From: a virus
Taxonomy: Duplodnaviria; Heunggongvirae; Uroviricota; Caudoviricetes
Virus record (IMG/VR): IMGVR_UViG_3300028854_000008
Span: 1-63,373 of that record
Reading direction: 5' to 3' (one strand)
DNA: 63,373 bases
Below are positions 38,011 to 62,858 of this stretch, in pieces. The position numbers and the translations under genes are program-made. The notes beneath the pieces are model-generated. The model was not told the DNA's origin and made no database searches. It saw nothing but the letters and a program-made list of their open reading frames with translations. Every line of letters starts with the position of its first letter. The stretch's first letter is position 1.

Positions 38011-41000
38011 TTGAACGATTTTTTAGTTAACCCACACCCATCCCAAGTTACAGTATTTGAAGACAGCTTTTCTGAAGAAGTATGGTCAAATACATATAAA
38101 AATTATAAAGACAAAGATATTAATGATACTTTTAATCGTGTTGCACAAGCAATTGCAAGCGTAGAAAAAACAGAAGATTTAAGAAAAGAATGGGCAGAAA
38201 AATTTTATGATATGATGTGTAATTTTTCTGTCGTTCCTGGTGGAAGAATTTTAGCAAATGCAGGTACAGAATTTCGTGGAACAAGTTTAATTAATTGTTT
38301 TGTTGGTCCAACTCCAAAATATGATTGCGATAGTTTATCTGGAATTTTAGAAGTTTTAAGAAGCCAATCAATTACTTTAAAGAGCGAAGGTGGGTGGGGA
38401 AAGAATTTTTCTTTTATCCGACCAAGAGGAACTTTTATTAAAGGAATTGGTGTTGAAACTCCTGGAGCAGTAAAGTTTATGGAACTATTTGACAAGAGTT
38501 CTGAAATTATTACAGCAGGTTCTGGAAAGAAAGCTTCAAATAAAAAAGCAAAAGGAAAAATAAGAAAAGGGGCGATGATGGGAATTTTGGATATTTCCCA
38601 TCCTGACATTATTGAATTTATTACTATAAAGCAAACTTCCAATAGATTATCTAAATTTAATCTTAGTATAAACTGCTCTGATAAATTTATGGATAAAGTA
38701 TTGTTAGTTAGTAAATTAAAAAAAGAAAGTGGTAGCCAGGAACAAATCGATGAAATAACATGGGATCTAATTTTTCCAGATACAACTTATGAAAAATATA
38801 AAGAAGAATGGTGCGGCGATATTCAAGATTGGCAAGAAAAAAATTATCCAGTAATTGTTTATCAAACAGTAAAAGTAGATTGGTTATGGAACCTTATTAC
38901 TCAATCAACTTATTCAAGAAATGAACCTGGAATTTTATTTTTAGATCGTGCAAATAAATTTAATGAATTAAATTATGCTGAAAAAATATTTGCAAGTAAC
39001 CCATGTGTTACTTTGGATTCATGGGTAACAACAAGTCGCGGAGCAAAACAAGTTAAAGAATTATTGGGAATTCCATTTACTGCTATTGTTGATGGTATTT
39101 GTTGGAATAGTTCTGAAAAGGGATTTTTTGTATCAGGAAATAAGCCTATTTTAAAAATAAGTACAATAAATGGCTATACCTTAAAAGTTACAGAAAATCA
39201 TAAAATAAAAATTTTAAGAAATAATAAAATTGATTGGATTGCTGCTGGAAAATTATCTATTGGTGATCAAATTTTTATTAATAATCATTCGTCAGTAGAT
39301 GTTAAAATATCTGAAAAAAATGATGCTATTGGATATGCGTTAGGATTGCTGGTTGGGGACGGAAATATTAGTGGAAAAAATGCTCATTTATGTTCTTGGG
39401 GAAATACAGAAGGAGTTAAAAATGTTCGTAATAAAGTTATGCAAGAATTGCTTCAATATGCTTCTCCAGCAAAAACTTTTAAAGGATGGCATGAAGTAAA
39501 AGGAAGAAATGAATATCGAATTCAATTTAAGGATTTGCATTCTTATGCAATATCATATGGACTTACTTCATCAAATAAACATGTAAATAAAACAATTGAA
39601 GAAGATATTTATATCAGCAAAGGATTTATTCGTGGGATGTTTGATGCTTATGGGTCTGTTCAAGGAAATAGAGATACAGGTTTGAGTATTCGTCTAAGTC
39701 AAAGCAATTTAGAAGATTTGCAAGCAATTCAACGAATGTTAGTTAGATGGGGAATTGTTTCTACCATATATGAAAACAAGAGAGATGAATGTTTGAAGGA
39801 TATGCCTGATGGAAAAGGTGGAAAAAAAGAATATCTATGTAAAGCAAATCATGAATTGGTATTATCTAAAAGTAATATAGAAAAATATTTAAATATTATT
39901 GGATTTTATGATTCAGATAAAAAAGAAAAATGTGAAAGACTTTTAACTGAATATGTTTATGGATTACATAAAGAAACATATTTAGCAGAAATATCCTCAA
40001 TTGAAAATTTTCCAAATGAAATTGTAGCGGATTGCGAAATCCCTGGAATTAATGCATTTGATTGTAATGGATTGGTAATTTCAAATTGCGGAGAGCAATT
40101 ACTTTCAAATGAAAATATTTGTTGTTTGGGATCTTTAAATCTAACTCAATTTATTAATAAAAATAGAACTGGATTTGATTTACATAAATTAGCGAAATAT
40201 ACAAAATATTTAATAAGATTTTTGGATAATGTAAATGATTATTCAGATGCTCCTCTTCCAGAATACATTAATTCAATGAGAAATAAACGAAGAATTGGCG
40301 CAGGATTAATGGGATGGGGAAGCGCATTATTTATTCTCAAAGTCAAATATGGTTCCAAAGAATCAACAAAGCTAAGAACTGAAATTTTAAAAACTTATAC
40401 ATTGGCTGGTGTTGAAGCGTCATTGGATTTAGCTGATGAAAAAGGAATGTTTAATTTATGTGAGCCAGAAAAACATGCCTTTAGTCCATATTGGGATAAT
40501 ATTGATTTGCCAGAAAATCTTCGTAAAAGAATTCTCAAGAATGGTATTAGAAATTCTTCACTATTTAGTTGCCAACCAACAGGAAATGCTGGTGTAACAG
40601 CTCAGATTGTATCGGGTGGAATTGAGCCCGTATTTATGTCTGAATATATTAGAACAGTTATCGTATCTTCAACGCCGGATCATATTAAAGATGTAACTCC
40701 AAATTGGAATCAAGGAGAATGGGCTGAGACTAATATGTTTAAATTCTCCCAAGAAGGAGATGAGCAAATTTTACGCGGTGTGGATAGTAATGGAGTTGTA
40801 TATAAAATCGATAAAAATAGAGGATTAACAAAAGAAGTTCTATGTCAGGATTATGGAGTTAGATATTTAACTAAATTTGGAGAGTGGAATCCTTCTGCTG
40901 ATTGGGCAGCAACAACTACTTCTTTATCAGTCAAAGATCATTTGGTTGAATTAGAGGGATTTGCAAAATATTTAGATAGCAGTGTATCAAAAACGATTAA

Positions 41001-41682
41001 TATTCCCAATGATTATCTATTTGAAGATTTTCAAAATATATATTTAGATGCATACAATACTGGGTATATCAAAGGATGTACCACATATCGTTCTGGATCA
41101 ATGACTTCTGTTCTTTCAGCAGTTGATCAAAAAAATGATGATATAGATGAAGAAGTTATTTTAGAAGATGTAAAATTGCCTGATAATATGTCTGCTGAAA
41201 TGAAAGTTCTGCATGATCATGAAGGTGATAGTAGTCGTAAATGGTATGTAACGATTAGTTTGAATGAAAATAAAGCACCAGTGGCAATATTTGTTCAAAC
41301 CAATGCAATGGAAAAATCAGTAACAACGAATGATGCTATTGAAAAATTATTTGCGTTGGCTAAAGTAAAAGGTATTCCAGAACAATATATAGAATCAACA
41401 TTTAAAAAATGCAATAATGATTCTAATAGTGTTAAAATTGCTAGAGCAATCGGATTATTATTACGTCATGGAGTAAGAATCAAATATATTGTTGCTGAAA
41501 TAGATAAAGTTGATGGCGTTACTTTTTCAAGTTTTCTATTTCATATTAAAAAGATGCTGGGAAGTTTTGTGAAAGATGGCGAAAAAATTGATGGGGCCAA
41601 ATGCACAGAATGTAATGGTCAACTTGTTTATGAATCAGGGTGCCAGAAATGCCTGCAATGTGGAAATTCAAAATGCGGATGA
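38011..41682 (+). CDS. nrdJ: Class II (B12-dependent) ribonucleotide reductase with intein, C-terminal TSCPD-like domain and Zn ribbon
   Basis: PGGRILANAG, LINCFV, NP-[intein]-CGEQ, CCLGSLNL, RRIGAGLMG, QPTGN, SVSKTIN, KGCTTYR; terminal CxxC...CxxCGxSKCG. Confidence 0.9.
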   Translation: MNDFLVNPHPSQVTVFEDSFSEEVWSNTYKNYKDKDINDTFNRVAQAIASVEKTEDLRKEWAEKFYDMMCNFSVVPGGRILANAGTEFRGTSLINCFVGPTPKYDCDSLSGILEVLRSQSITLKSEGGWGKNFSFIRPRGTFIKGIGVETPGAVKFMELFDKSSEIITAGSGKKASNKKAKGKIRKGAMMGILDISHPDIIEFITIKQTSNRLSKFNLSINCSDKFMDKVLLVSKLKKESGSQEQIDEITWDLIFPDTTYEKYKEEWCGDIQDWQEKNYPVIVYQTVKVDWLWNLITQSTYSRNEPGILFLDRANKFNELNYAEKIFASNPCVTLDSWVTTSRGAKQVKELLGIPFTAIVDGICWNSSEKGFFVSGNKPILKISTINGYTLKVTENHKIKILRNNKIDWIAAGKLSIGDQIFINNHSSVDVKISEKNDAIGYALGLLVGDGNISGKNAHLCSWGNTEGVKNVRNKVMQELLQYASPAKTFKGWHEVKGRNEYRIQFKDLHSYAISYGLTSSNKHVNKTIEEDIYISKGFIRGMFDAYGSVQGNRDTGLSIRLSQSNLEDLQAIQRMLVRWGIVSTIYENKRDECLKDMPDGKGGKKEYLCKANHELVLSKSNIEKYLNIIGFYDSDKKEKCERLLTEYVYGLHKETYLAEISSIENFPNEIVADCEIPGINAFDCNGLVISNCGEQLLSNENICCLGSLNLTQFINKNRTGFDLHKLAKYTKYLIRFLDNVNDYSDAPLPEYINSMRNKRRIGAGLMGWGSALFILKVKYGSKESTKLRTEILKTYTLAGVEASLDLADEKGMFNLCEPEKHAFSPYWDNIDLPENLRKRILKNGIRNSSLFSCQPTGNAGVTAQIVSGGIEPVFMSEYIRTVIVSSTPDHIKDVTPNWNQGEWAETNMFKFSQEGDEQILRGVDSNGVVYKIDKNRGLTKEVLCQDYGVRYLTKFGEWNPSADWAATTTSLSVKDHLVELEGFAKYLDSSVSKTINIPNDYLFEDFQNIYLDAYNTGYIKGCTTYRSGSMTSVLSAVDQKNDDIDEEVILEDVKLPDNMSAEMKVLHDHEGDSSRKWYVTISLNENKAPVAIFVQTNAMEKSVTTNDAIEKLFALAKVKGIPEQYIESTFKKCNNDSNSVKIARAIGLLLRHGVRIKYIVAEIDKVDGVTFSSFLFHIKKMLGSFVKDGEKIDGAKCTECNGQLVYESGCQKCLQCGNSKCG
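39004..40086 (+). mobile_element. Intein (361 aa) with LAGLIDADG homing-endonuclease domain inserted at the RNR active-site NPCxE motif
   Basis: Starts CVTLDSW, block B VTENH, LGLLVGDG and GMFDAYG motifs, ends VISN before extein Cys. Confidence 0.92.
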
Positions 41683-49779: not shown

Positions 49780-50223
49780 ATGGAAAATGAGAAGAGATTT
49801 TATATTTTGGTTCCTAAAACAGTTCAAGTGAAGACTGTAGTAAATACGCAGCATATGGTATCAAGTACAATCGAGACATATCCAGTTGAAACAATAACGT
49901 CTTTTAGAATGGTTCCTGGTCGTTTGCTGGCGCAGACTTTTCATATTGGTAGAAAGATCGAGTCGTGGCGGCGATCCTTGGGAATTCAATATGAAGATAT
50001 TACAGCAATTTCTCTCAGCGTCCGTAATACTCGTGAATTGCAAAAAGTTAGCAAGGAATTGATGAGTTTCAAGCTTCGTGAACCTGCTTTTTACGATGAA
50101 TTTTACGACACAAATCTTGATTTTTATGGTACGACTGATAGCGTTCAAACTGCGACAGTTATTGGGCCAGTTTTTAAGGAAGAGTTGGACAGTATTATTG
50201 GCCATTTAGAACTGTATGAATAA
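49780..50223 (+). CDS. Pth2-like (peptidyl-tRNA hydrolase 2 fold) protein
   Basis: GRLLAQTFH, ISLSVRNTRELQ, final TATVIGP. Confidence 0.55.
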   Translation: MENEKRFYILVPKTVQVKTVVNTQHMVSSTIETYPVETITSFRMVPGRLLAQTFHIGRKIESWRRSLGIQYEDITAISLSVRNTRELQKVSKELMSFKLREPAFYDEFYDTNLDFYGTTDSVQTATVIGPVFKEELDSIIGHLELYE

Positions 50224-54177: not shown

Positions 54178-55187
54178 ATGAAGAAATTATTTCAAACATT
54201 ATATGGGTCATCTTTGTATGGAACAGCCACAGCTAATTCTGACATAGACATCAAGGTTATTATTCTTCCTTCTTTAGATGATTTATTGCTAGGAATTTCT
54301 CCCAAGAATAAAGTCAAAAACAATAATAAAAAGTTTGGAGAAAAAAACACTGCTGAAAACATTGATATTGAGGAAATTCCATTACATATGTTTGCTAAAG
54401 ATTTTATGGAAGGACAATCTTATGCAATTGAGTTAGCTTTCGCAGTTGAATGTGTTGATGCTGAACAAGCAATTTACGATGGAAGATTTCCAAAATTTGT
54501 TTCAGAATTAAGAAGTAAATTTTTGACTTCAAATATTTTTGCTATTTGTGGTTATAGTTTGCATCAGGCGAATCTATATTCTGATAAAGGCGATAGATTG
54601 TGCGCTGCTTTTGAAGCTGAAAAATTGTATTCTGAATTTCCACTATTGGATAAAATTTCAGATCATTCTGAAAACTTCAATAAAGAGGCAAATATTGTTC
54701 AGAATAAATTTCCTAAATATTTTCAAGTGACTGAATATGCAGTTGACGCAACCAAAACTGTAATGCGCCCATGCGTTAAACTTCTTGAAAAGACTCTTCC
54801 ATATTCAAATACTTTTGAAACAAACCTTGCAACTATCAAAAAGCAGATTGGAAAGTTTGGTACAAGAGCCAAAGCCGCTTCTCTATCTGGCGCAGACTGG
54901 AAGGCAATTTCTCATAGTTTGAGAATTGTAAATGAAGGAATTGAGTTGCTTTCTGGAAAAAATTGATATATCCATATCCTAAAGAATATTGTGAATATCT
55001 GCTTAGTATTAAGCGCGGAGAACATTCAATTGAAGAAATTTCTGCCTTAATTAGTGATGGAGTTGATAAATTGAAAACTTTGTCTTTGAGTTCTAAATTG
55101 CCTGAATGCAATGCAGAACTTACAGAAAAATTCAATATTTGGTTTTTGGAATGGTTGAAGAAATTTTACAGTTTGAAGGATTGTTGA
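54178..55187 (+). CDS. Pol-beta superfamily nucleotidyltransferase, split at A6 (54957-54962)
   Basis: YGSSLYGTATANSDID (GS...DxD); C-terminal DWKAISHSLR...LLSGK / LIYPYP...IKRG continues in the shifted frame. Confidence 0.75.
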
Positions 55188-55381: not shown

Positions 55382-56368
55382 ATGACTCCTGATTATGGAA
55401 TAATTTGCGGCAGATTTCAGATACCAGAGTTGCATGATGGCCACAGAGCATTGCTCAATGCTGTTGGGCAGTTGCATCCTAGAGTAATTGTATTCATTGG
55501 ATGTGTTCCTGCTGGTGTGGCACCGACAAAAAATGATCCTCTTGATTTTGATACCCGCCGACGGATGGTTCAACAGTTGTATCCAAGTTATGAAGTGTAT
55601 CCAATTCATAATCGCAAGAGTGATGAACTATGGAGCGCAGATTTGGATCGACTAATTACTGAAAGAGTTCCATATGGAAAAGCAACATTGTATGGAAGTC
55701 GAGACAGTTTTGCTAAGAGTTACACTGGAAAGCGTAAAGTTGTTGAATTGACACTGGCTGTTTCCAGAAATATTTCTGGAACTGATTTGAGAAATGAAAT
55801 TGCGAATGTGGTGCAGGACAGTCCAGCATTCCGAGCAGGAATTATTTATGGACAGTTGAACACGTTTGATCGCGTTATACCCACAGTTGATATTGCGATT
55901 ATTCATCGAGGACTTCCAAAAATTGATGGAGTATCCAAAAATGATAACGGCGATACATACGTTGTAAATCCAACATGCGGGATTGAACTTCTGTTGGCAA
56001 AACGAGCAGATGAAGCTGGCTGGAGATTTCCTGGTGGTCACGCTATGGGGAAAAATCGCCCGCAGAATCAGAGCTATGAACACGATGCAAATATGGAAAG
56101 TTACGAGGAAACAGCAAGCTATCCTGAAAATTTGAAGTATATTGGAAGCACCCAGATTGATGATTGGCGTTATAAGGACACCCCTGAATCTATTAAAACT
56201 GTTTTCTTTCTTGGCGAAGTTATGACATTGGCAAGTGTTGGAGGAGATGATATTGCTACAACACGATTCTTCCCAATTGAAAAAGTAAGTGAAGAAATGT
56301 TTGAGCCAGAACATAAAATATTATTCAATATGTTAATGAATTATTTAAAGAAGGAAAAGTATTTATAG
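55382..56368 (+). CDS. Bifunctional NMN adenylyltransferase / Nudix hydrolase (NadM-Nudix type)
   Basis: GRFQIPELHDGH (HxGH), DPLDF, ISGTDLR; Nudix FPGG...ESYEET...GGDD. Confidence 0.9.
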   Translation: MTPDYGIICGRFQIPELHDGHRALLNAVGQLHPRVIVFIGCVPAGVAPTKNDPLDFDTRRRMVQQLYPSYEVYPIHNRKSDELWSADLDRLITERVPYGKATLYGSRDSFAKSYTGKRKVVELTLAVSRNISGTDLRNEIANVVQDSPAFRAGIIYGQLNTFDRVIPTVDIAIIHRGLPKIDGVSKNDNGDTYVVNPTCGIELLLAKRADEAGWRFPGGHAMGKNRPQNQSYEHDANMESYEETASYPENLKYIGSTQIDDWRYKDTPESIKTVFFLGEVMTLASVGGDDIATTRFFPIEKVSEEMFEPEHKILFNMLMNYLKKEKYL

Positions 56369-56811: not shown

Positions 56812-58230
56812 ATGCCGAGGCCGCTCGTAATTAACCCACTTTTAGACGATGATAGTTATAAAAAAACTCACCCAAAAATGCTTCCAGATAATTTAACTGA
56901 GGCAATGAATTATTATTGTAATCGCGGAGGAATTTATAGCGAAGCTGTGTTTTTTGGTCTTCAGTATCAGTTAATCTCTGAATTTGAAGGGAAGTTTTTC
57001 ACTCAGGAAAATCTTGATGAAGCATATGCAGATAGCCAGATTCATTTTTATGATGGATTTCCTTATCCTAAAGAACAGTGGCAGTATATATTAGACAAAT
57101 ATGATGGAAGATTGCCTATTGAAATTAAAGCCATCAAAGAAGGACAGCCATTTAATATCTCCAATGATGGAGTAAATACTGTTGTATTTACAGTAGAAAG
57201 TACTGATGAAAAATGTGCATGGCTCCCAGGATGGTGCGAAACTCGTTTAATGCGTAATTGGTATGGTAGTATTGTTGCTACTCAGAGTCGAGAAGTTAAA
57301 AAATTGGCCAAGGAATATTTGACATTAACGGCTGATTCTTATAATTCTCTTCCATTTATGTTGCATGATTTTGGAGGTAGAGCAGTATCTTGTACTCATC
57401 AGGCTGCACTCGGAGGCGCGGCTCATCTTATTAATTTTAAAGGAACTGATACTGGAATTGCTATGAGTCTTTTGCATCAGTATTATGATGCACCACGAGT
57501 TTCTGCTTATAGCGTTCCTGCTTCTGAACATTTTGTTATGACTATGGAAGGACCAGAAGGAGAAAGAAGTGTAACTGGAAGAATTCTTGGAGTATATAAA
57601 GATGCTCCAATCGTAAGTATTGTTATTGATAGTTATGATGATGAATATTTTGTTCGTGAAATTCTTGGTGGGACATTTCGTGACCAGATTTTACATGGAA
57701 AGAGCAAAATTGTTGCAAGACCTGATTCTGGCGATCCAGAAATTAAAGTTCCAATTCTTTTGAATATCCTTGGTGATAGATTTGGTTATACCATCAATAA
57801 CAAAGGATTCAAAGTTTTGAGCCCTTGTGTTGGCATTCTTTGGGGAGATGGAATGGATATTTTTAGTATTCGCAAATTATATGAAGCTTTGCGTCTTGCT
57901 GGGTGGAGTGTTGAAAATACTGTAGTTGGAATGGGTGGCGGTTTATTACAGAAAATTAATCGAGATACGAGTCGAGCCGCGATGAAATTTTGTAATATTG
58001 TTTTAAATGGAGTAGATACACCAGTGTATAAAAAACCAAAAGATGATCCATTCAAAGCCAGCTTTGCTGGAAGGCCAGCATTGGTTTATAGTGAAGCAAC
58101 TGGTTTATATAGAACGGTTAAAGATAATGGAAATGGAGTATATGGAAATTGTCTTGAATTGGTTTTTAGAAACGGAAAAGTTCTTCGTCATCAGACATTG
58201 GAAGAAATTCGTCAGTTGGCTGATGTATAA
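56812..58230 (+). CDS. nadV: Nicotinamide phosphoribosyltransferase (NAMPT)
   Basis: DDSYKKTH, ETRL, LHDFGGR, SVPASEH, SIVIDSYD, RPDSGDP, WGDG, GMGGGLLQ. Confidence 0.95.
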   Translation: MPRPLVINPLLDDDSYKKTHPKMLPDNLTEAMNYYCNRGGIYSEAVFFGLQYQLISEFEGKFFTQENLDEAYADSQIHFYDGFPYPKEQWQYILDKYDGRLPIEIKAIKEGQPFNISNDGVNTVVFTVESTDEKCAWLPGWCETRLMRNWYGSIVATQSREVKKLAKEYLTLTADSYNSLPFMLHDFGGRAVSCTHQAALGGAAHLINFKGTDTGIAMSLLHQYYDAPRVSAYSVPASEHFVMTMEGPEGERSVTGRILGVYKDAPIVSIVIDSYDDEYFVREILGGTFRDQILHGKSKIVARPDSGDPEIKVPILLNILGDRFGYTINNKGFKVLSPCVGILWGDGMDIFSIRKLYEALRLAGWSVENTVVGMGGGLLQKINRDTSRAAMKFCNIVLNGVDTPVYKKPKDDPFKASFAGRPALVYSEATGLYRTVKDNGNGVYGNCLELVFRNGKVLRHQTLEEIRQLADV

Positions 58231-58305
58231 TTGCCAGAATAAAGTGGTAACGCTATTGGTGTTAAGATTGACAGCGGATTCTTAGGAAACTTGGAGGAAA
58301 AATAA

Positions 58306-58485
58306 ATGCACCCTTATGACCAGCTAGTAAAGGATATGCTTGCTTGGGTGCATGAGCAAAGCACACCTAAATGTTCGTGGTGCGAAAGACAATTCGCTGT
58401 TAGTCAAGGTTTTTGCTCTCAGAACTGCTGCAACGAACAAAGAGAATACGAACGTAAGCACGGTATTGCAGCCGATACTCTGTAA
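58306..58485 (+). CDS. Small zinc-finger protein, 59 aa (not in ORF track)
   Basis: GGAGG SD; CSWC...FCSQNC. Confidence 0.6.
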   Translation: MHPYDQLVKDMLAWVHEQSTPKCSWCERQFAVSQGFCSQNCCNEQREYERKHGIAADTL

Positions 58486-58514
58486 GGTATCACTGAATGT
58501 ATTAAAATAATTTT

Positions 58515-58664
58515 GGCTAGGCCAGTCTTCAGAGATTGGCTCTCTGATCGCAGTTGCTGACGGCAGAGTGACATAATATAGAGGGGTTCATACATAAAAT
58601 CCTTGCAACAGGAAAAGATATGGATGAGTATATAAAGATGGTTAAACTCCATCCCTAGCCACCA
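58515..58664 (+). ncRNA. Expanded tRNA-like RNA (150 nt)
   Basis: Perfect acceptor GGCTAGG/CCTAGCC, A-CCA end, T-arm GATGG-TTAAACT-CCATC, ~75 extra internal nt. Confidence 0.7.
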
Positions 58665-58682
58665 AATTTATAAAGGAAAAAT

Positions 58683-58880
58683 ATGAAATTTATACCAAAC
58701 TATTCAAAGGCCCCAGACATTGGCGAAGAAAAGATTAAGAGAAAATTTATAATTTTTCCTCGCCAATGCCCAATGACTGGGACATATTATTTTCTGCAAA
58801 CTTGCACATTTCACTATAAATATGGCTCATTTTGTAGCGATACCAATGATTATTGGTATCTAGTAAAAATTACTGATTAA
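58683..58880 (+). CDS. Small hypothetical protein (paralog of 59326)
   Basis: FIIFPRQCPMTGTYYFL. Confidence 0.6.
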   Translation: MKFIPNYSKAPDIGEEKIKRKFIIFPRQCPMTGTYYFLQTCTFHYKYGSFCSDTNDYWYLVKITD

Positions 58881-58893
58881 GAAAGGCAAAATT

Positions 58894-59112
58894 ATGATGT
58901 GTAATTCATGTGGAAGCATAAGAATATTGGAAGTATCTGGAAAAGTTTCAGATGCGTGTTTTATTACTTTTGCAAATGAGGAGCATGATGGATATGTTCC
59001 TTATAATTTAAGAATTGGAGGCGGGGATTATTTAGAATTTAATCTCTGTATGGAGTGTGGGAAAGTGCAAGGAAAATTTCCAGTTGCTGAAGTGAATCTT
59101 GAAGGAAGATAA
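58894..59112 (+). CDS. Small Zn-ribbon-like protein
   Basis: CNSCGS...CMECG. Confidence 0.65.
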   Translation: MMCNSCGSIRILEVSGKVSDACFITFANEEHDGYVPYNLRIGGGDYLEFNLCMECGKVQGKFPVAEVNLEGR

Positions 59113-60279: not shown

Positions 60280-60353
60280 TAAAGTTTTTGCTTGGGGTGG
60301 TTACTTATTTGACAGATTTATATAAACGAATTAAAGATTGGAATGAAAAATAT

Positions 60354-60425
60354 GGGGAATAAGTGTTGATAGGAGCACGATAGATTCGCAATTTATAAGG
60401 GTGAGGGCAGTTCTCACATTCTCCA
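60354..60425 (+). tRNA. tRNA-Ala, anticodon CGC, non-canonical T-loop (GGCAGTT)
   Basis: GGGGAAT/ATTCTCC with G3:U70; loop TT-CGC-AA; no encoded CCA. Confidence 0.7.
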
Positions 60426-60426
60426 C

Positions 60427-60487
60427 AAGTTATTGAAAATAAAGCACTTATTTTTTACTTGACAAATGATCTAGAATTTAGTATTAT
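60427..60487 (+). promoter_or_regulatory. Conserved upstream element plus sigma70-like promoter for tRNA-Ala(TGC)
   Basis: AAGTTATTGAAAATAAAGCACTTA; TTGACA(60459)-N17-TATTAT. Confidence 0.75.
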
Positions 60488-60506
60488 TAAAGAGTAGCAA
60501 GAATAT

Positions 60507-60599
60507 GGGCTATGGGGCTGCTAGGGTGGCCACTGGTTTTGCACTCCAGAATCATCGAGAAATCGATACAGCGGGATTCAAATTCCCGATAGTCCACCA
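60507..60599 (+). tRNA. tRNA-Ala, anticodon TGC, with long class II variable arm
   Basis: GGGCTAT/ATAGTCC with G3:U70; loop TT-TGC-AC; V-arm ATCGA-GAAA-TCGAT; CCA. Confidence 0.85.
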
Positions 60600-60610
60600 A
60601 AAAATTTAGG

Positions 60611-60639
60611 TTGACAAACAAAGTAAAGTTTGATAGTAT
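60611..60639 (+). promoter_or_regulatory. sigma70-like promoter driving the large ncRNA and downstream tRNAs
   Basis: TTGACA-N17-TAGTAT, followed by AAAGAGTAGCAAGAA as at 60489. Confidence 0.75.
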
Positions 60640-60645
60640 AAAAGA

Positions 60646-61173: not shown

Positions 61174-61291
61174 AGATCAATAGCTCAATTGGTTAGAGCA
61201 ACGAGATTAACAGATCAAGTCGTAAAGCCACAAGCCTAAGATACTTGAAGTCACTCGTCGGTTGAAGGTTCGAGTCCTTCTTGATTTACTA
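61174..61291 (+). tRNA. tRNA body with a 41-nt insertion in the anticodon loop (anticodon ambiguous, possibly TAA)
   Basis: AGATCAA/TTGATTT acceptor, canonical D- and T-arms, stem ACGAG/CTCGT enclosing 48 nt. Confidence 0.75.
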
Positions 61292-61613: not shown

Positions 61614-61730
61614 GAGATTGTAGCTCAATTGGTAGAGCAACGCCCTTTTTTCGGGATGCTTCTTTGAGAGAGCATTCGATGGATGCTTTCAAAAAGGCGC
61701 AGGTTGTGGGTTCGATTCCCACCAGTCTCA
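61614..61730 (+). tRNA. tRNA-Lys(TTT)-like body with a 44-nt insertion in the anticodon loop
   Basis: GAGATTG/CAGTCTC acceptor; CGCC-CTTTT...AA-GGCG enclosing 51 nt. Confidence 0.78.
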
Positions 61731-61785
61731 CAAAGATTTGAAATTAAAACCATCTTCGCATAAATAAAGATGGAGGATCAATTAA

Positions 61786-62400
61786 ATGCCATTAGTAAAT
61801 TGTCCAAAATGTAATACTGAATTTGAGAATAAAGGAAAATGGGGAACCAAAAAATTTTGTAGTAGAAAATGTGCCAATTCAAAAGATCGGCCACAAGAGT
61901 TAAGAGATAGAGTTTCTAAAAAATTAAAAGGAAGAATTGGAAAAAGTATTTTTCTTTCTCCAGAGAAACTCATAAGTCGTAATCTTAAACTTAGAAAAAC
62001 TTGGGATTTAAAATATGAGAATATTCCATTTGAAGAACTTTCTTGGGATTTACAAAGATTGCGAGTAATAAAAGAACAAAATAATTCTTGCGGAAAATGT
62101 GAAATTACTGAATGGTTTGAAAATCCAATAACTTTAGAAGTTGATCATATAGATGGAAACCGAAAGAATAATTGTAGAGAAAATTTAATTGCTATTTGTC
62201 CAAATTGTCATAGTATTACTACAACATGGCGCGGAAGAAATAGAAAAACTGTGGATTATAAAACTGATGAAGAAATTTTAAATGTTATTTTACAAACTGA
62301 AAATATTCATCAAGCATTAAAATTTCTAAATATGGCATGTCGAGGAGCCAATTATAAAAGATTACAACAGTTAATGGAAAAAAATAATATCTCTTACTAA
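61786..62400 (+). CDS. HNH endonuclease embedded in the tRNA cluster
   Basis: N-terminal CPKC...FCSRKC; CGKC...LEVDHIDGNRKNNCRENLIAICPNCH. Confidence 0.9.
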   Translation: MPLVNCPKCNTEFENKGKWGTKKFCSRKCANSKDRPQELRDRVSKKLKGRIGKSIFLSPEKLISRNLKLRKTWDLKYENIPFEELSWDLQRLRVIKEQNNSCGKCEITEWFENPITLEVDHIDGNRKNNCRENLIAICPNCHSITTTWRGRNRKTVDYKTDEEILNVILQTENIHQALKFLNMACRGANYKRLQQLMEKNNISY

Positions 62401-62406
62401 ATTTAT

Positions 62407-62511
62407 AGCCGTATAGCTCAATTGGTTCAGAGCATTCCCCTTATTTAGGGCCTGTGCATCAGACCTTAAATAAGGGAAAGGTTGATGGTTCGATCCCATC
62501 TACGGCTACCA
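62407..62511 (+). tRNA. tRNA-Ile-like body (anticodon TAT or AAT) with a 27-nt insertion in the anticodon loop
   Basis: AGCCGTA/TACGGCT acceptor, TTCCC/GGGAA stem enclosing 34 nt, CCA. Confidence 0.8.
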
Positions 62512-62526
62512 CAAAGTTTAAATGTT

Positions 62527-62586
62527 GGCTTGTAGCATAATTGGCAATGTGTGACCCTGTTAAGGTCAAAGATGATGGTCCAGCCA
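62527..62586 (+). pseudogene. Degenerate tRNA-Asn(GTT) lacking most of the T-arm
   Basis: TGACC-CTGTTAA-GGTCA intact; T-loop and 3' T-stem missing. Confidence 0.65.
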
Positions 62587-62597
62587 AAATTTAAAGT

Positions 62598-62716
62598 TTC
62601 GCTGTAGGGAAAATATACCCCGCTGCATGAGGCAGAAAGATATTGAGGGGCTGGTCAACGGCTATAGACGCCCAGTGAGTAAATATTTGATGGTGCAAAT
62701 CCATCCGGCGATACCA
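62598..62716 (+). ncRNA. tRNA-like RNA with a ~55-nt variable-region insertion; identity unclear
   Basis: TCGCTG/CGGCGA acceptor, GGG/CCC D-stem, CTGC/GCAG arm, T-arm GATGG-TGCAAAT-CCATC, A-CCA. Confidence 0.6.
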
Positions 62717-62723
62717 ATTTTAT

Positions 62724-62858
62724 GGGATGGTAGCTCAGTAGAAGAGCAATGGCTATGAGGGGTAGTCTAGCGACGGTTAGATGAGACTCAAGTGCAAAAG
62801 TCATACGTCGAGAAGTCTGAAGGCCAAGGACATTGTGCAAATCCCTCTCATCCCATCA
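62724..62858 (+). ncRNA. tRNA-like RNA with a ~60-nt insertion in the anticodon arm and a degenerate T-stem
   Basis: GGGATGG/TCATCCC acceptor, canonical D-arm, TGGCT/GGCCA stem enclosing a long insert. Confidence 0.55.

What the first reader, a model, noticed from the sequence alone, without database searches (positions are those of the whole stretch)
58515..58664. Orphan 150-nt tRNA-like RNA 1.5 kb upstream of the tRNA cluster
Seen: perfect 7-bp acceptor with A-CCA and a 5-bp T-arm. The D-region forms an unusually long GCCAGTC/GATTGGC hairpin, followed by CTCTG/CAGAG and TCCT-TGCAAC-AGGA hairpins instead of a normal anticodon arm. It has C3:G70, so it is not an Ala acceptor and not tmRNA. 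Inference: a tRNA mimic conceptually like the bacterial Y RNA YrlA, a CCA-protected scaffold, or a decoy for tRNA-binding defence proteins.
Basis: partly seen in the sequence, partly recalled or inferred. Interest (0 to 1): 0.78.

Follow-up and report, generated by a model that had tools for sequence, protein, structure and literature searches.

The report
Orphan tRNA-framed small RNA in phage
A large peat-bog phage carries a 150-base gene candidate with the upper half of a transfer RNA (acceptor stem, T arm, CCA end) around a body that cannot read codons; it resembles in design, but not in sequence, phage T4's still-unexplained RNA C, and with no relatives or RNA data its job cannot be tested here.

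Summary
At 58515-58664 (+) a perfect 7-bp acceptor stem, an adjacent 5-bp T arm with a 7-nt loop and an encoded A-CCA enclose 115 nt that form three hairpins, none of them a D arm or an anticodon arm. Genome-wide this frame occurs only in the phage's tRNA genes and here, only on the tRNA strand (shuffles: 0.01 per genome). The element fills a stop-rich, GC-enriched intergenic gap 1.5 kb before a cluster of 33 or more tRNA genes. It is not a tRNA, tmRNA or YrlA by Rfam or ARAGORN. No single deletion gives a clean tRNA. No Ro60 gene lies in the 127 kb held, and the phage has a separate permuted tmRNA. The closest known thing is T4 RNA C (species 1 RNA): a tRNA frame with body hairpins whose loops are complementary. 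This element has its own 5-nt loop-loop complement, but a covariance model of rnaC does not match it, so it is an analogue, not a homologue. No homologue was found. The two nearest relatives lack it at the syntenic site, and six assemblies carry identical copies, so covariation and expression are untested. Best reading: a non-decoding RNA excised and end-protected by tRNA-maturation enzymes, body function unknown. The scan has noted this kind on other DNA before.

The parts
58515..58521 (+). 5' strand of the acceptor stem (GGCUAGG)
   Evidence: Pairs perfectly with 58654-58660; pair probabilities 0.84-1.0; frame scan.
58522..58539 (+). P2: 7-bp hairpin with loop UCAG in the D-arm position, no linker to the acceptor, no G18G19
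   Evidence: Pair probabilities 0.85-1.0.
58540..58585 (+). P3: 7-bp helix (58540-58546 with 58579-58585) closing a 32-nt loop, in the anticodon-arm position. An alternative 5-bp helix is 58542-58546 with 58564-58568. There is no 7-nt anticodon loop.
   Evidence: The structure here is uncertain: the CUCUCUG strand has three possible (C/U)AGAG partners.
58553..58557 (+). GUUGC in the P3 loop, complementary to the P4 loop
   Evidence: Five Watson-Crick pairs with 58605-58609; seen in 3.9% of shuffled loops. Post hoc.
58587..58628 (+). P4: interrupted long hairpin in the variable-arm position; tip UCCU-UGCAAC-AGGA at 58600-58613
   Evidence: Pair probabilities 0.7-0.96.
58629..58636 (+). A/U-only single-stranded linker (UAUAUAAA)
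   Evidence: Unpaired in the minimum-energy and centroid folds.
58637..58653 (+). T arm: 5-bp stem GAUGG/CCAUC with 7-nt loop UUAAACU. U54, U55, A58 and G53-C61 are kept; position 56 is A, not C.
   Evidence: Pair probability 0.99. The same A56 occurs in this phage's tRNA-Ser(AGA).
58654..58664 (+). 3' strand of the acceptor stem, discriminator A, encoded CCA
   Evidence: Thirty of 33 ARAGORN tRNA genes of this phage also encode CCA followed by an A-rich trailer.
58306..58485 (+). Upstream 59-aa ORF with CxxC...FCSxxCC motif. Like the RNA, it is absent from the nearest relatives.
   Evidence: Its only match in the protein collection is itself. The link to the RNA is adjacency only.
58683..58880 (+). 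Downstream 65-aa ORF; its ribosome-binding site starts 8 nt after the CCA
   Evidence: A homologue is present in relative L003/L033 without the RNA.

Best explanation
The element is a gene for a non-decoding, tRNA-framed small RNA, built like phage T4 RNA C. It has no promoter-like site of its own, so it is probably read through from the upstream NAD-salvage genes. The 12-bp acceptor/T-arm stack with its T loop and ACCA is the part of a pre-tRNA that bacterial RNase P needs. RNase P would cut at G1 (58515). The A/U-rich trailer would be cut and trimmed back to the encoded CCA, which the CCA-adding enzyme can maintain. This would release a stable RNA of about 150 nt with both ends locked in a tRNA-like helix. 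The three body hairpins stand where the D, anticodon and variable arms of a class-II tRNA stand. They carry no anticodon loop and no elbow-forming GG, so the RNA cannot decode. A 5-nt pairing between the P3 loop and the P4 loop may close the body into a compact module, which is the likely working part (a protein- or RNA-binding surface, or a decoy). Shown: the frame, its non-randomness, its strand, its intergenic fit and the lack of tRNA core features. Inferred: transcription, processing, stability, the loop-loop contact and any binding function.
For: - The frame is significant and strand-specific: 18 places, 17 of them tRNA genes, 0 on the minus strand, shuffles 0.01.
- It has the same 3' design as the phage's tRNA genes: NCCA then an A-rich trailer.
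- It fills a 197-nt gap between two + strand ORFs, with stops in all three + frames, and gene callers left the gap empty.
- GC is 0.44 against 0.325 for the window.
- Fold z = -3.1.
- All 12 frame pairs are Watson-Crick although the interior shows no trace of tRNA. This argues for selection on the frame.
- The phage holds a graded series of enlarged tRNA-type genes: anticodon-loop inserts of 27-50 nt, and oversized tRNA-shaped genes at 62600-62716 and 62724-62858.
- Precedent: T4 rnaC has a tRNA frame plus body hairpins with invariant complementary loops, and 19 covarying pairs in five diverged copies. [quoted passage not shown]
- Acceptor/T-stem/T-loop model hairpins are cut efficiently by E. 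coli RNase P RNA, and the RCCA end pairs with it (PMC11143913).
- The element has its own loop-loop complement, GUUGC/GCAAC.
Against: - There is no evidence of transcription.
- No promoter-like site lies within about 700 nt upstream on the + strand.
- No homologue was found, so no covariation can be tested. The two nearest relatives (NAMPT 82-85% identical) lack the element at the syntenic site, and G001 and G002 lack it anywhere in the DNA held. It is therefore dispensable for the lineage and could be young or decaying.
- The T loop has A56 and the body lacks G18G19, so a tRNA-like elbow is doubtful. The elbow helps RNase P binding.
- The body fold is ambiguous: one CUCUCUG strand has three possible partners.
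- The loop-loop complement was found post hoc and arises in about 4% of shuffles.
Confidence: 0.55

Rival explanations
1. It is a derelict or chance structure: a tRNA gene copy whose core was overwritten by insertions and drift, or a recent insertion with no function, kept only because it is young.
For: It is absent from the closest relatives at the syntenic site and elsewhere in their held DNA. No homologue turned up in IMG/VR, phage records or 100 NAMPT-linked loci. There is no promoter of its own. The T loop has A56 and there is no D-loop GG. All assemblies are identical, so purifying selection cannot be measured.
Against: All 12 frame pairs plus ACCA are intact, while the 115-nt interior keeps nothing of a tRNA. 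Neutral decay should hit the stems as well. The frame is expected only 0.01 times per genome by chance. The interior is itself well folded and GC-enriched.
Confidence: 0.18
2. It is a cis-acting processing signal. The tRNA-like fold serves only to have RNase P and 3' nucleases cut the polycistronic transcript between the 59-aa and 65-aa ORFs, setting mRNA ends and stability. The excised RNA is then a by-product.
For: It sits 29 nt after one stop codon and 18 nt before the next start codon, with no promoter or terminator of its own. RNase P is known to cut mRNAs and other non-tRNA substrates with tRNA-like folds (PMC11143913).
Against: An acceptor/T-arm hairpin alone would do this job. The 115-nt structured, GC-rich body and the encoded CCA are unnecessary for it. 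Relatives express the homologous downstream ORF without the element.
Confidence: 0.12
3. It is a true tRNA precursor carrying two or more inserts. A phage or host splicing activity removes them and yields a decoding or at least chargeable tRNA.
For: Four tRNA genes of this phage carry 27-50-nt inserts in the anticodon loop. The five helices lie in the order of a class-II tRNA. No tRNA-Met gene was called in the 127 kb.
Against: No single deletion of 30-94 nt gives a tRNA without mismatches or a shifted acceptor. The intron-bearing tRNAs keep canonical D arms, and this element does not. No RtcB-type ligase lies in the held DNA. There is no tRNA model hit at E<=10.
Confidence: 0.07
4. The region is protein-coding on the minus strand (77-aa ORF 58419-58652), and the RNA fold is incidental.
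For: An ATG-started 77-aa frame is open there.
Against: It has no Pfam or PHROG match. It overlaps the 3' end of a + strand gene in a block where the genes called around it are on the + strand. Gene callers in six assemblies did not call it. The tRNA frame is far beyond chance.
Confidence: 0.03

Closest known systems
Phage T4 RNA C (rnaC, species 1 RNA, 139 nt; NC_000866 70908-71046, minus strand) and its Tevenvirinae homologues
   Same: Both are small RNA genes on the tRNA strand in or next to the phage tRNA cluster. Both are about 140-150 nt. In both, a 7-position closing stem is stacked on a 5-bp T arm with a 7-nt T loop. Structured hairpins replace the D and anticodon arms, with no linker after the 5' acceptor strand. 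Both have an A/U-rich single-stranded linker. Loops of two body hairpins are complementary: UUGACG/CGUCAA in rnaC and GUUGC/GCAAC here. Neither is recognised by the Rfam tRNA model. The function of rnaC is unknown (PMC3014915, PMC9697503).
   Different: There is no sequence or profile homology: the rnaC covariance model scores 2.7 bits, E 8.4, on the element, and the element's model scores 7 bits on rnaC. The rnaC stem has two conserved U.U mismatches and no encoded CCA; here the stem is perfect and ACCA is encoded. rnaC has a canonical UUCGAAU T loop; here it is UUAAACU. rnaC has two body arms; here there are three. rnaC is conserved in 748 phage records; this element is an orphan.
Bacterial Y RNA-like YrlA (Rfam RF02553)
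   Same: Both are non-decoding RNAs with a tRNA-like module, and YrlA also occurs in some phages (PMC4201824).
   Different: The Rfam YrlA model gives no hit on the element. No Ro60/TROVE or RtcB gene lies in the 127 kb held. In YrlA the 5' and 3' ends form the Ro-binding stem and there is no acceptor-CCA end (own knowledge of PMC4201824, not re-read here).
tmRNA (tRNA-like domain)
   Same: Both have an acceptor stem, T arm and ACCA, with a large non-tRNA insert between the 5' acceptor strand and the T arm.
   Different: C3:G70 stands in place of the G3:U70 alanine identity pair. There is no tmRNA model hit. At 150 nt it is too short for pseudoknots plus a tag frame. The phage encodes a genuine permuted tmRNA elsewhere (RF04321, 73 bits).
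Class-II tRNAs and selenocysteine/allo-tRNAs (long D stem with 4-nt loop, long variable arm; PMC5389517)
   Same: Five helices lie in the order acceptor, D position, anticodon position, variable position, T arm. The stem in the D position is long and has a 4-nt loop.
   Different: It has the 7/5 acceptor/T layout, not 8/5, 9/4, 8/4 or 9/3. It has no 7-nt anticodon loop, no UCA or other identifiable anticodon, and no tRNA model score.

Membership tests
tRNA (Rfam RF00005 / ARAGORN) | 7-bp acceptor stem, discriminator, (CCA), 5-bp T stem with 7-nt T loop | tested here: met
   The T loop has A rather than C at position 56.
tRNA (Rfam RF00005 / ARAGORN) | D arm with G18G19, and a 5-bp anticodon stem with a 7-nt loop | tested here: not met
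   the hairpins do not fit; no clean cloverleaf after any single deletion.
tRNA (Rfam RF00005 / ARAGORN) | Covariance-model score at or above 29 bits, or an ARAGORN call | tested here: not met
   No RF00005 hit at E<=10 in 58300-58900. ARAGORN gives none, with or without introns.
tmRNA | G3:U70 alanine identity pair in the acceptor stem | tested here: not met
   C3:G70.
tmRNA | Match to the tmRNA covariance models or an ARAGORN tmRNA call | tested here: not met
   No hit. The phage's real permuted tmRNA is at L029:888-1093.
YrlA (RF02553) | Match to the YrlA covariance model | tested here: not met
   No hit at E<=10 on the element.
YrlA (RF02553) | A Ro60 (TROVE) partner gene in the genome, usually nearby | tested here: not met
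   PF05731 gives no match in the 127 kb held, while the control genomes ring. The record is about 49% complete, so absence from the whole phage is not shown.
T4 rnaC (species 1 RNA) family | Profile homology to rnaC (model R2, built from five diverged copies) | tested here: not met
   2.7 bits, E 8.4, below ordinary tRNAs.
T4 rnaC (species 1 RNA) family | Invariant loop motifs UUGACG and CGUCAAC | tested here: not met
   Absent. The element has the unrelated pair GUUGC/GCAAC.
T4 rnaC (species 1 RNA) family | Design: tRNA frame, body hairpins with complementary loops, gene on the tRNA strand at the tRNA cluster | tested here: met
   This shows likeness of design, not common descent.
T4 rnaC (species 1 RNA) family | Accumulates as a small stable RNA in infected cells | not testable with these tools
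   No RNA data could be obtained for this phage.
tRNA-Sec / allo-tRNA | 12-13-bp acceptor/T branch in 8/5, 9/4, 8/4 or 9/3 layout, with a recognisable anticodon loop | tested here: not met
   7/5 layout and no 7-nt anticodon loop.

The most novel reading that the evidence does not exclude
The RNA is an abundant, non-decoding bait that copies only the acceptor end of a tRNA. It would soak up a host anti-phage effector that attacks tRNA 3' ends or acceptor stems (nucleotidyltransferase or pyrophosphokinase toxins), or a tRNA-binding enzyme. The kissing-loop body would keep it off the ribosome. It would be a strain-specific counter-defence cassette, perhaps acting with the equally orphan 59-aa zinc-finger protein encoded just upstream.
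Probability: 0.08. Interest if true: 0.8.

Novelty: new member of a known kind. Interest (0 to 1): 0.36.

Why it matters
Phage T4's RNA C has had no known function for about fifty years. Each independent, non-homologous case of the same design (a tRNA frame around a closed, non-decoding body) strengthens the view that phages use the tRNA frame as a general chassis. The chassis would borrow the cell's tRNA-maturation enzymes to make stable small RNAs. This example adds a variant with a perfect acceptor stem and an encoded CCA. It sits in a phage that shows a graded series from normal tRNAs through insert-bearing tRNAs to tRNA-framed RNAs. On its own it gives little leverage, because it is an orphan with an unknown host, no relatives and no RNA data.

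Tried and rejected
**Family and tRNA tests**
- Rfam at E<=10 on 58300-58900 gave only weak chance hits (microRNA precursors, rli48, MALAT1 and others), all far below their gathering scores.
- ARAGORN, with and without introns, called nothing.
- A scan of all single deletions of 30-94 nt gave 489 ARAGORN calls. All have mismatched stems or an acceptor shifted by 5 nt, for example 'Ser-GCU'. This was rejected as forced fits. Double deletions were not tried, because that much freedom would produce false positives.

**Homologue searches**
- blastn against 50,697 phage records found none.
- Exact IMG/VR scans found nothing related. The 28-nt 3' end and the 19-nt P4 tip gave no match. The 18-nt P2 hairpin gave two unrelated GC-rich coding hits. 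A loop-motif pattern gave one unrelated coding hit.
- The single-sequence covariance model R1 was run on the whole records of the two nearest relatives and two complete NAMPT phages and on 100 NAMPT-linked loci, 725 kb. The only matches were 16-19-bit hits in L064 and L070 with many broken pairs, judged chance, and one ordinary tRNA.
- NAMPT-anchored loci from IMG/VR and JGI metagenomes yielded only two relative lineages. Both lack the element between NAMPT and the conserved downstream ORFs.
- The upstream 59-aa protein has no relative either.

**Variation and expression**
- Six other assemblies and contigs of two of the four peat runs laid carry the element, whole or in part, without a single difference. 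There is no natural variation to test pairing.
- No RNA holder was listed among the public runs, so expression could not be examined.

**Other checks**
- The longest antisense match to the phage's own + strand is 11 nt, about the chance level.
- Two further 'frame' candidates under relaxed rules were dismissed: 80709-80850 is AT-rich coding sequence, and 120903-121060 is part of the tmRNA.
- The nearby nucleotidyltransferase (54178-54966) matched no solved structure or NCBIfam model.
- Full-text literature searches found no description of tRNA-framed phage RNAs beyond T4 RNAC/RNAD.

Full report
**Setting.** The window is the first half of a 127-kb IMG/VR phage record from peat, estimated about 49% complete. 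It encodes:
- ribonucleotide reductase with an intein, an NAD-dependent ligase, and an NAD-salvage pair (NAMPT at 56812-58230 and an NMNAT-Nudix protein at 55382-56368);
- from 60205 onward, at least 33 tRNA genes, all on the + strand.

Thirty of the 33 ARAGORN-called tRNA genes encode their CCA and are followed by an A-rich trailer.

**Observation.** The element at 58515-58664 lies in a 197-nt gap between two small + strand ORFs, 58306-58485 and 58683-58880.
- The gap has stop codons in all three + frames, and gene callers in six other assemblies left it empty.
- Its G+C is 0.44 against 0.325 for the window.
- Two qualifications apply. G7 belongs to the acceptor rather than to the next hairpin. 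The CUCUG/CAGAG helix competes with a 7-bp helix 26-32/65-71 that the energy model prefers.

The predicted fold is a five-way junction in the order of a class-II tRNA:
- acceptor (1-7/140-146);
- P2 in the D position (8-14/19-25, loop UCAG);
- P3 in the anticodon position (7 bp closing a 32-nt loop);
- P4 in the variable position (an interrupted hairpin with tip loop UGCAAC);
- an 8-nt A/U linker;
- the T arm (123-139), then ACCA.

Energy is -46.6 kcal/mol, z = -3.1.

**Is it more than chance?** I scanned both strands of the 127-kb record for four features together: a perfect 7-bp stem enclosing 60-220 nt, an immediately adjacent 5-bp stem, a TTnnAnn loop, and NCCA.
- There are 18 places, all on the + strand. 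Seventeen are tRNA genes and the eighteenth is this element.
- One hundred block shuffles gave a mean of 0.01.
- The upper half of a tRNA is therefore really there and is on the tRNA strand.

**What it is not.**
- *Not a tRNA.* The Rfam tRNA model gives no hit at E<=10, although it scores the phage's insert-bearing tRNAs at 52-58 bits. ARAGORN gives none. No single deletion of 30-94 nt gives a cloverleaf without mismatches or a shifted acceptor. The four tRNA genes with 27-50-nt anticodon-loop inserts keep textbook D arms, and this element does not.
- *Not a tmRNA.* It has C3:G70 and no model hit. The phage has a genuine permuted tmRNA with G3:U70 at L029:888-1093 (RF04321, 73 bits).
- *Not YrlA.* There is no RF02553 hit on it, and no Ro60/TROVE or RtcB gene in the DNA held.
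- *Probably not minus-strand coding.* The 77-aa minus-strand frame has no family match and is not called in any assembly.

**Relatives.** No homologue was found by any route. The routes were phage-record blastn, exact and patterned IMG/VR scans, and a single-sequence covariance model run over relatives' whole records and 100 NAMPT-linked loci.
- NAMPT-anchored loci from IMG/VR and JGI metagenomes gave two related lineages, 82-85% identical in NAMPT.
- Both lineages have different small ORFs and no tRNA-like element between NAMPT and the conserved downstream genes.
- The 59-aa ORF just upstream is equally unique. The ORF and the RNA therefore form a stretch of about 360 nt that only this phage has.
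- Six further assemblies, and contigs of two of the four peat runs laid, carry the element, whole or in part, without a single change.

**Closest known thing.** T4 rnaC (species 1 RNA, 139 nt) lies in the T4 tRNA cluster.
- Folding it shows a canonical T arm stacked on a 7-position acceptor-like stem, with body hairpins in place of the D and anticodon arms.
- Five diverged Tevenvirinae copies give 19 pairs with compensatory changes. They also show two invariant, mutually complementary hairpin loops, UUGACG and CGUCAA.
[quoted passage not shown] RNA-seq and a Northern blot class them as late RNAs of unknown function (PMC9697503).
- Rfam has no family for rnaC, and its tRNA model misses it, as it misses the present element.

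The present element shares this design. It also has its own loop-loop complement: GUUGC in the P3 loop against GCAAC in the P4 hexaloop. That complement was found after the fact and occurs in 3.9% of shuffles. It is not a homologue. The rnaC model scores it 2.7 bits, E 8.4, and the reverse test gives 7 bits. The rnaC loop motifs and U.U mismatches are absent, and rnaC lacks the encoded CCA.

**Mechanism.**
- *Shown:* a tRNA frame without a tRNA core, placed and oriented like the phage's tRNA genes.
- *From established knowledge:* hairpins made of the acceptor stem, T stem and T loop are efficient RNase P substrates, and the RCCA end pairs with the RNase P RNA (PMC11143913).
- *Inferred:* the element is read through from upstream, since no promoter-like site lies within about 700 nt. 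RNase P cuts at G1, the trailer is trimmed to the encoded CCA, and the RNA persists as a stable 150-nt molecule. Its body, perhaps closed by the loop-loop contact, would be the working part.
- What the body binds is unknown. A decoy for factors that recognise tRNA acceptor ends is possible but untested.

I put 0.55 on a real, processed, non-decoding tRNA-framed RNA. The rivals are a derelict or chance structure (0.18), a processing signal only (0.12), a multi-insert tRNA precursor (0.07) and minus-strand coding (0.03).

**Context from the scan.** Earlier notes describe many phage 'tRNA-chassis' RNAs, with T4 rnaC named as the nearest known thing. One note records the same 150 nt in another record. 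I used these as leads only. The rnaC kissing loops and the non-homology were tested here.

**Verdict.** The element is a new, orphan member of a known but unexplained kind. Interest is moderate to low, because nothing about its function can be tested from the data that exist.

Noticed in passing
L029:888-1093 (= G000 contig 120996-121201, outside the window): The phage encodes a permuted (two-piece) tmRNA: Rfam RF04321 at 73.1 bits (gathering score 47), with G3:U70 in the acceptor. ARAGORN also calls a permuted tmRNA there.
   Followed up: partly
window 62600-62716 and 62724-62858: Two further oversized tRNA-shaped genes (117 and 135 nt) lie inside the tRNA cluster. Both have an acceptor stem and a T arm with loop UGCAAAU. 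The first has a very long arm in the variable position. The second keeps a canonical D arm but has about 60 extra nt in place of the anticodon arm.
   Followed up: partly
window 61174-61289, 61614-61731, 62407-62511; G000 67295-67420: Four otherwise canonical tRNA genes carry 27-50-nt inserts in the anticodon loop. These are too short for group I introns, and no RtcB ligase lies in the DNA held. The relative G001 has the same 50-nt insert in its tRNA-Asn.
   Followed up: partly
window 62526-62587: A truncated copy of the 5' two-thirds of tRNA-Asn(GUU); the first 30 nt printed are identical to the gene at G000 66810. It lacks a T arm. Rfam tRNA score 31.5 bits.
   Followed up: no
window 38011-41682: The ribonucleotide reductase large subunit is interrupted by an intein with a LAGLIDADG endonuclease domain.
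   Followed up: no
window 61786-62400: An HNH endonuclease gene sits in the middle of the tRNA cluster, like segB in the T4 tRNA region.
   Followed up: no
window 60300-60640: Strong sigma-70-type promoters (TTGACA, 17 nt, TAnTAT) stand before individual tRNA genes, each followed by a shared AAAGAGTAGCAAGAA leader. No such promoter precedes the element at 58515.
   Followed up: no
G001 contig 99470-99937 (minus strand), in L118: ARAGORN calls a tRNA with a 372-nt insert in the anticodon loop in the nearest relative. It may be a group I intron.
   Followed up: no
window 49780-50223 and 54178-54966: A weak PTH2-like peptidyl-tRNA hydrolase match (21 bits, below the cut-off) and a phrog_388 nucleotidyltransferase lie a few kb upstream. 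Both hint at further tRNA- or translation-related accessory genes.
   Followed up: partly
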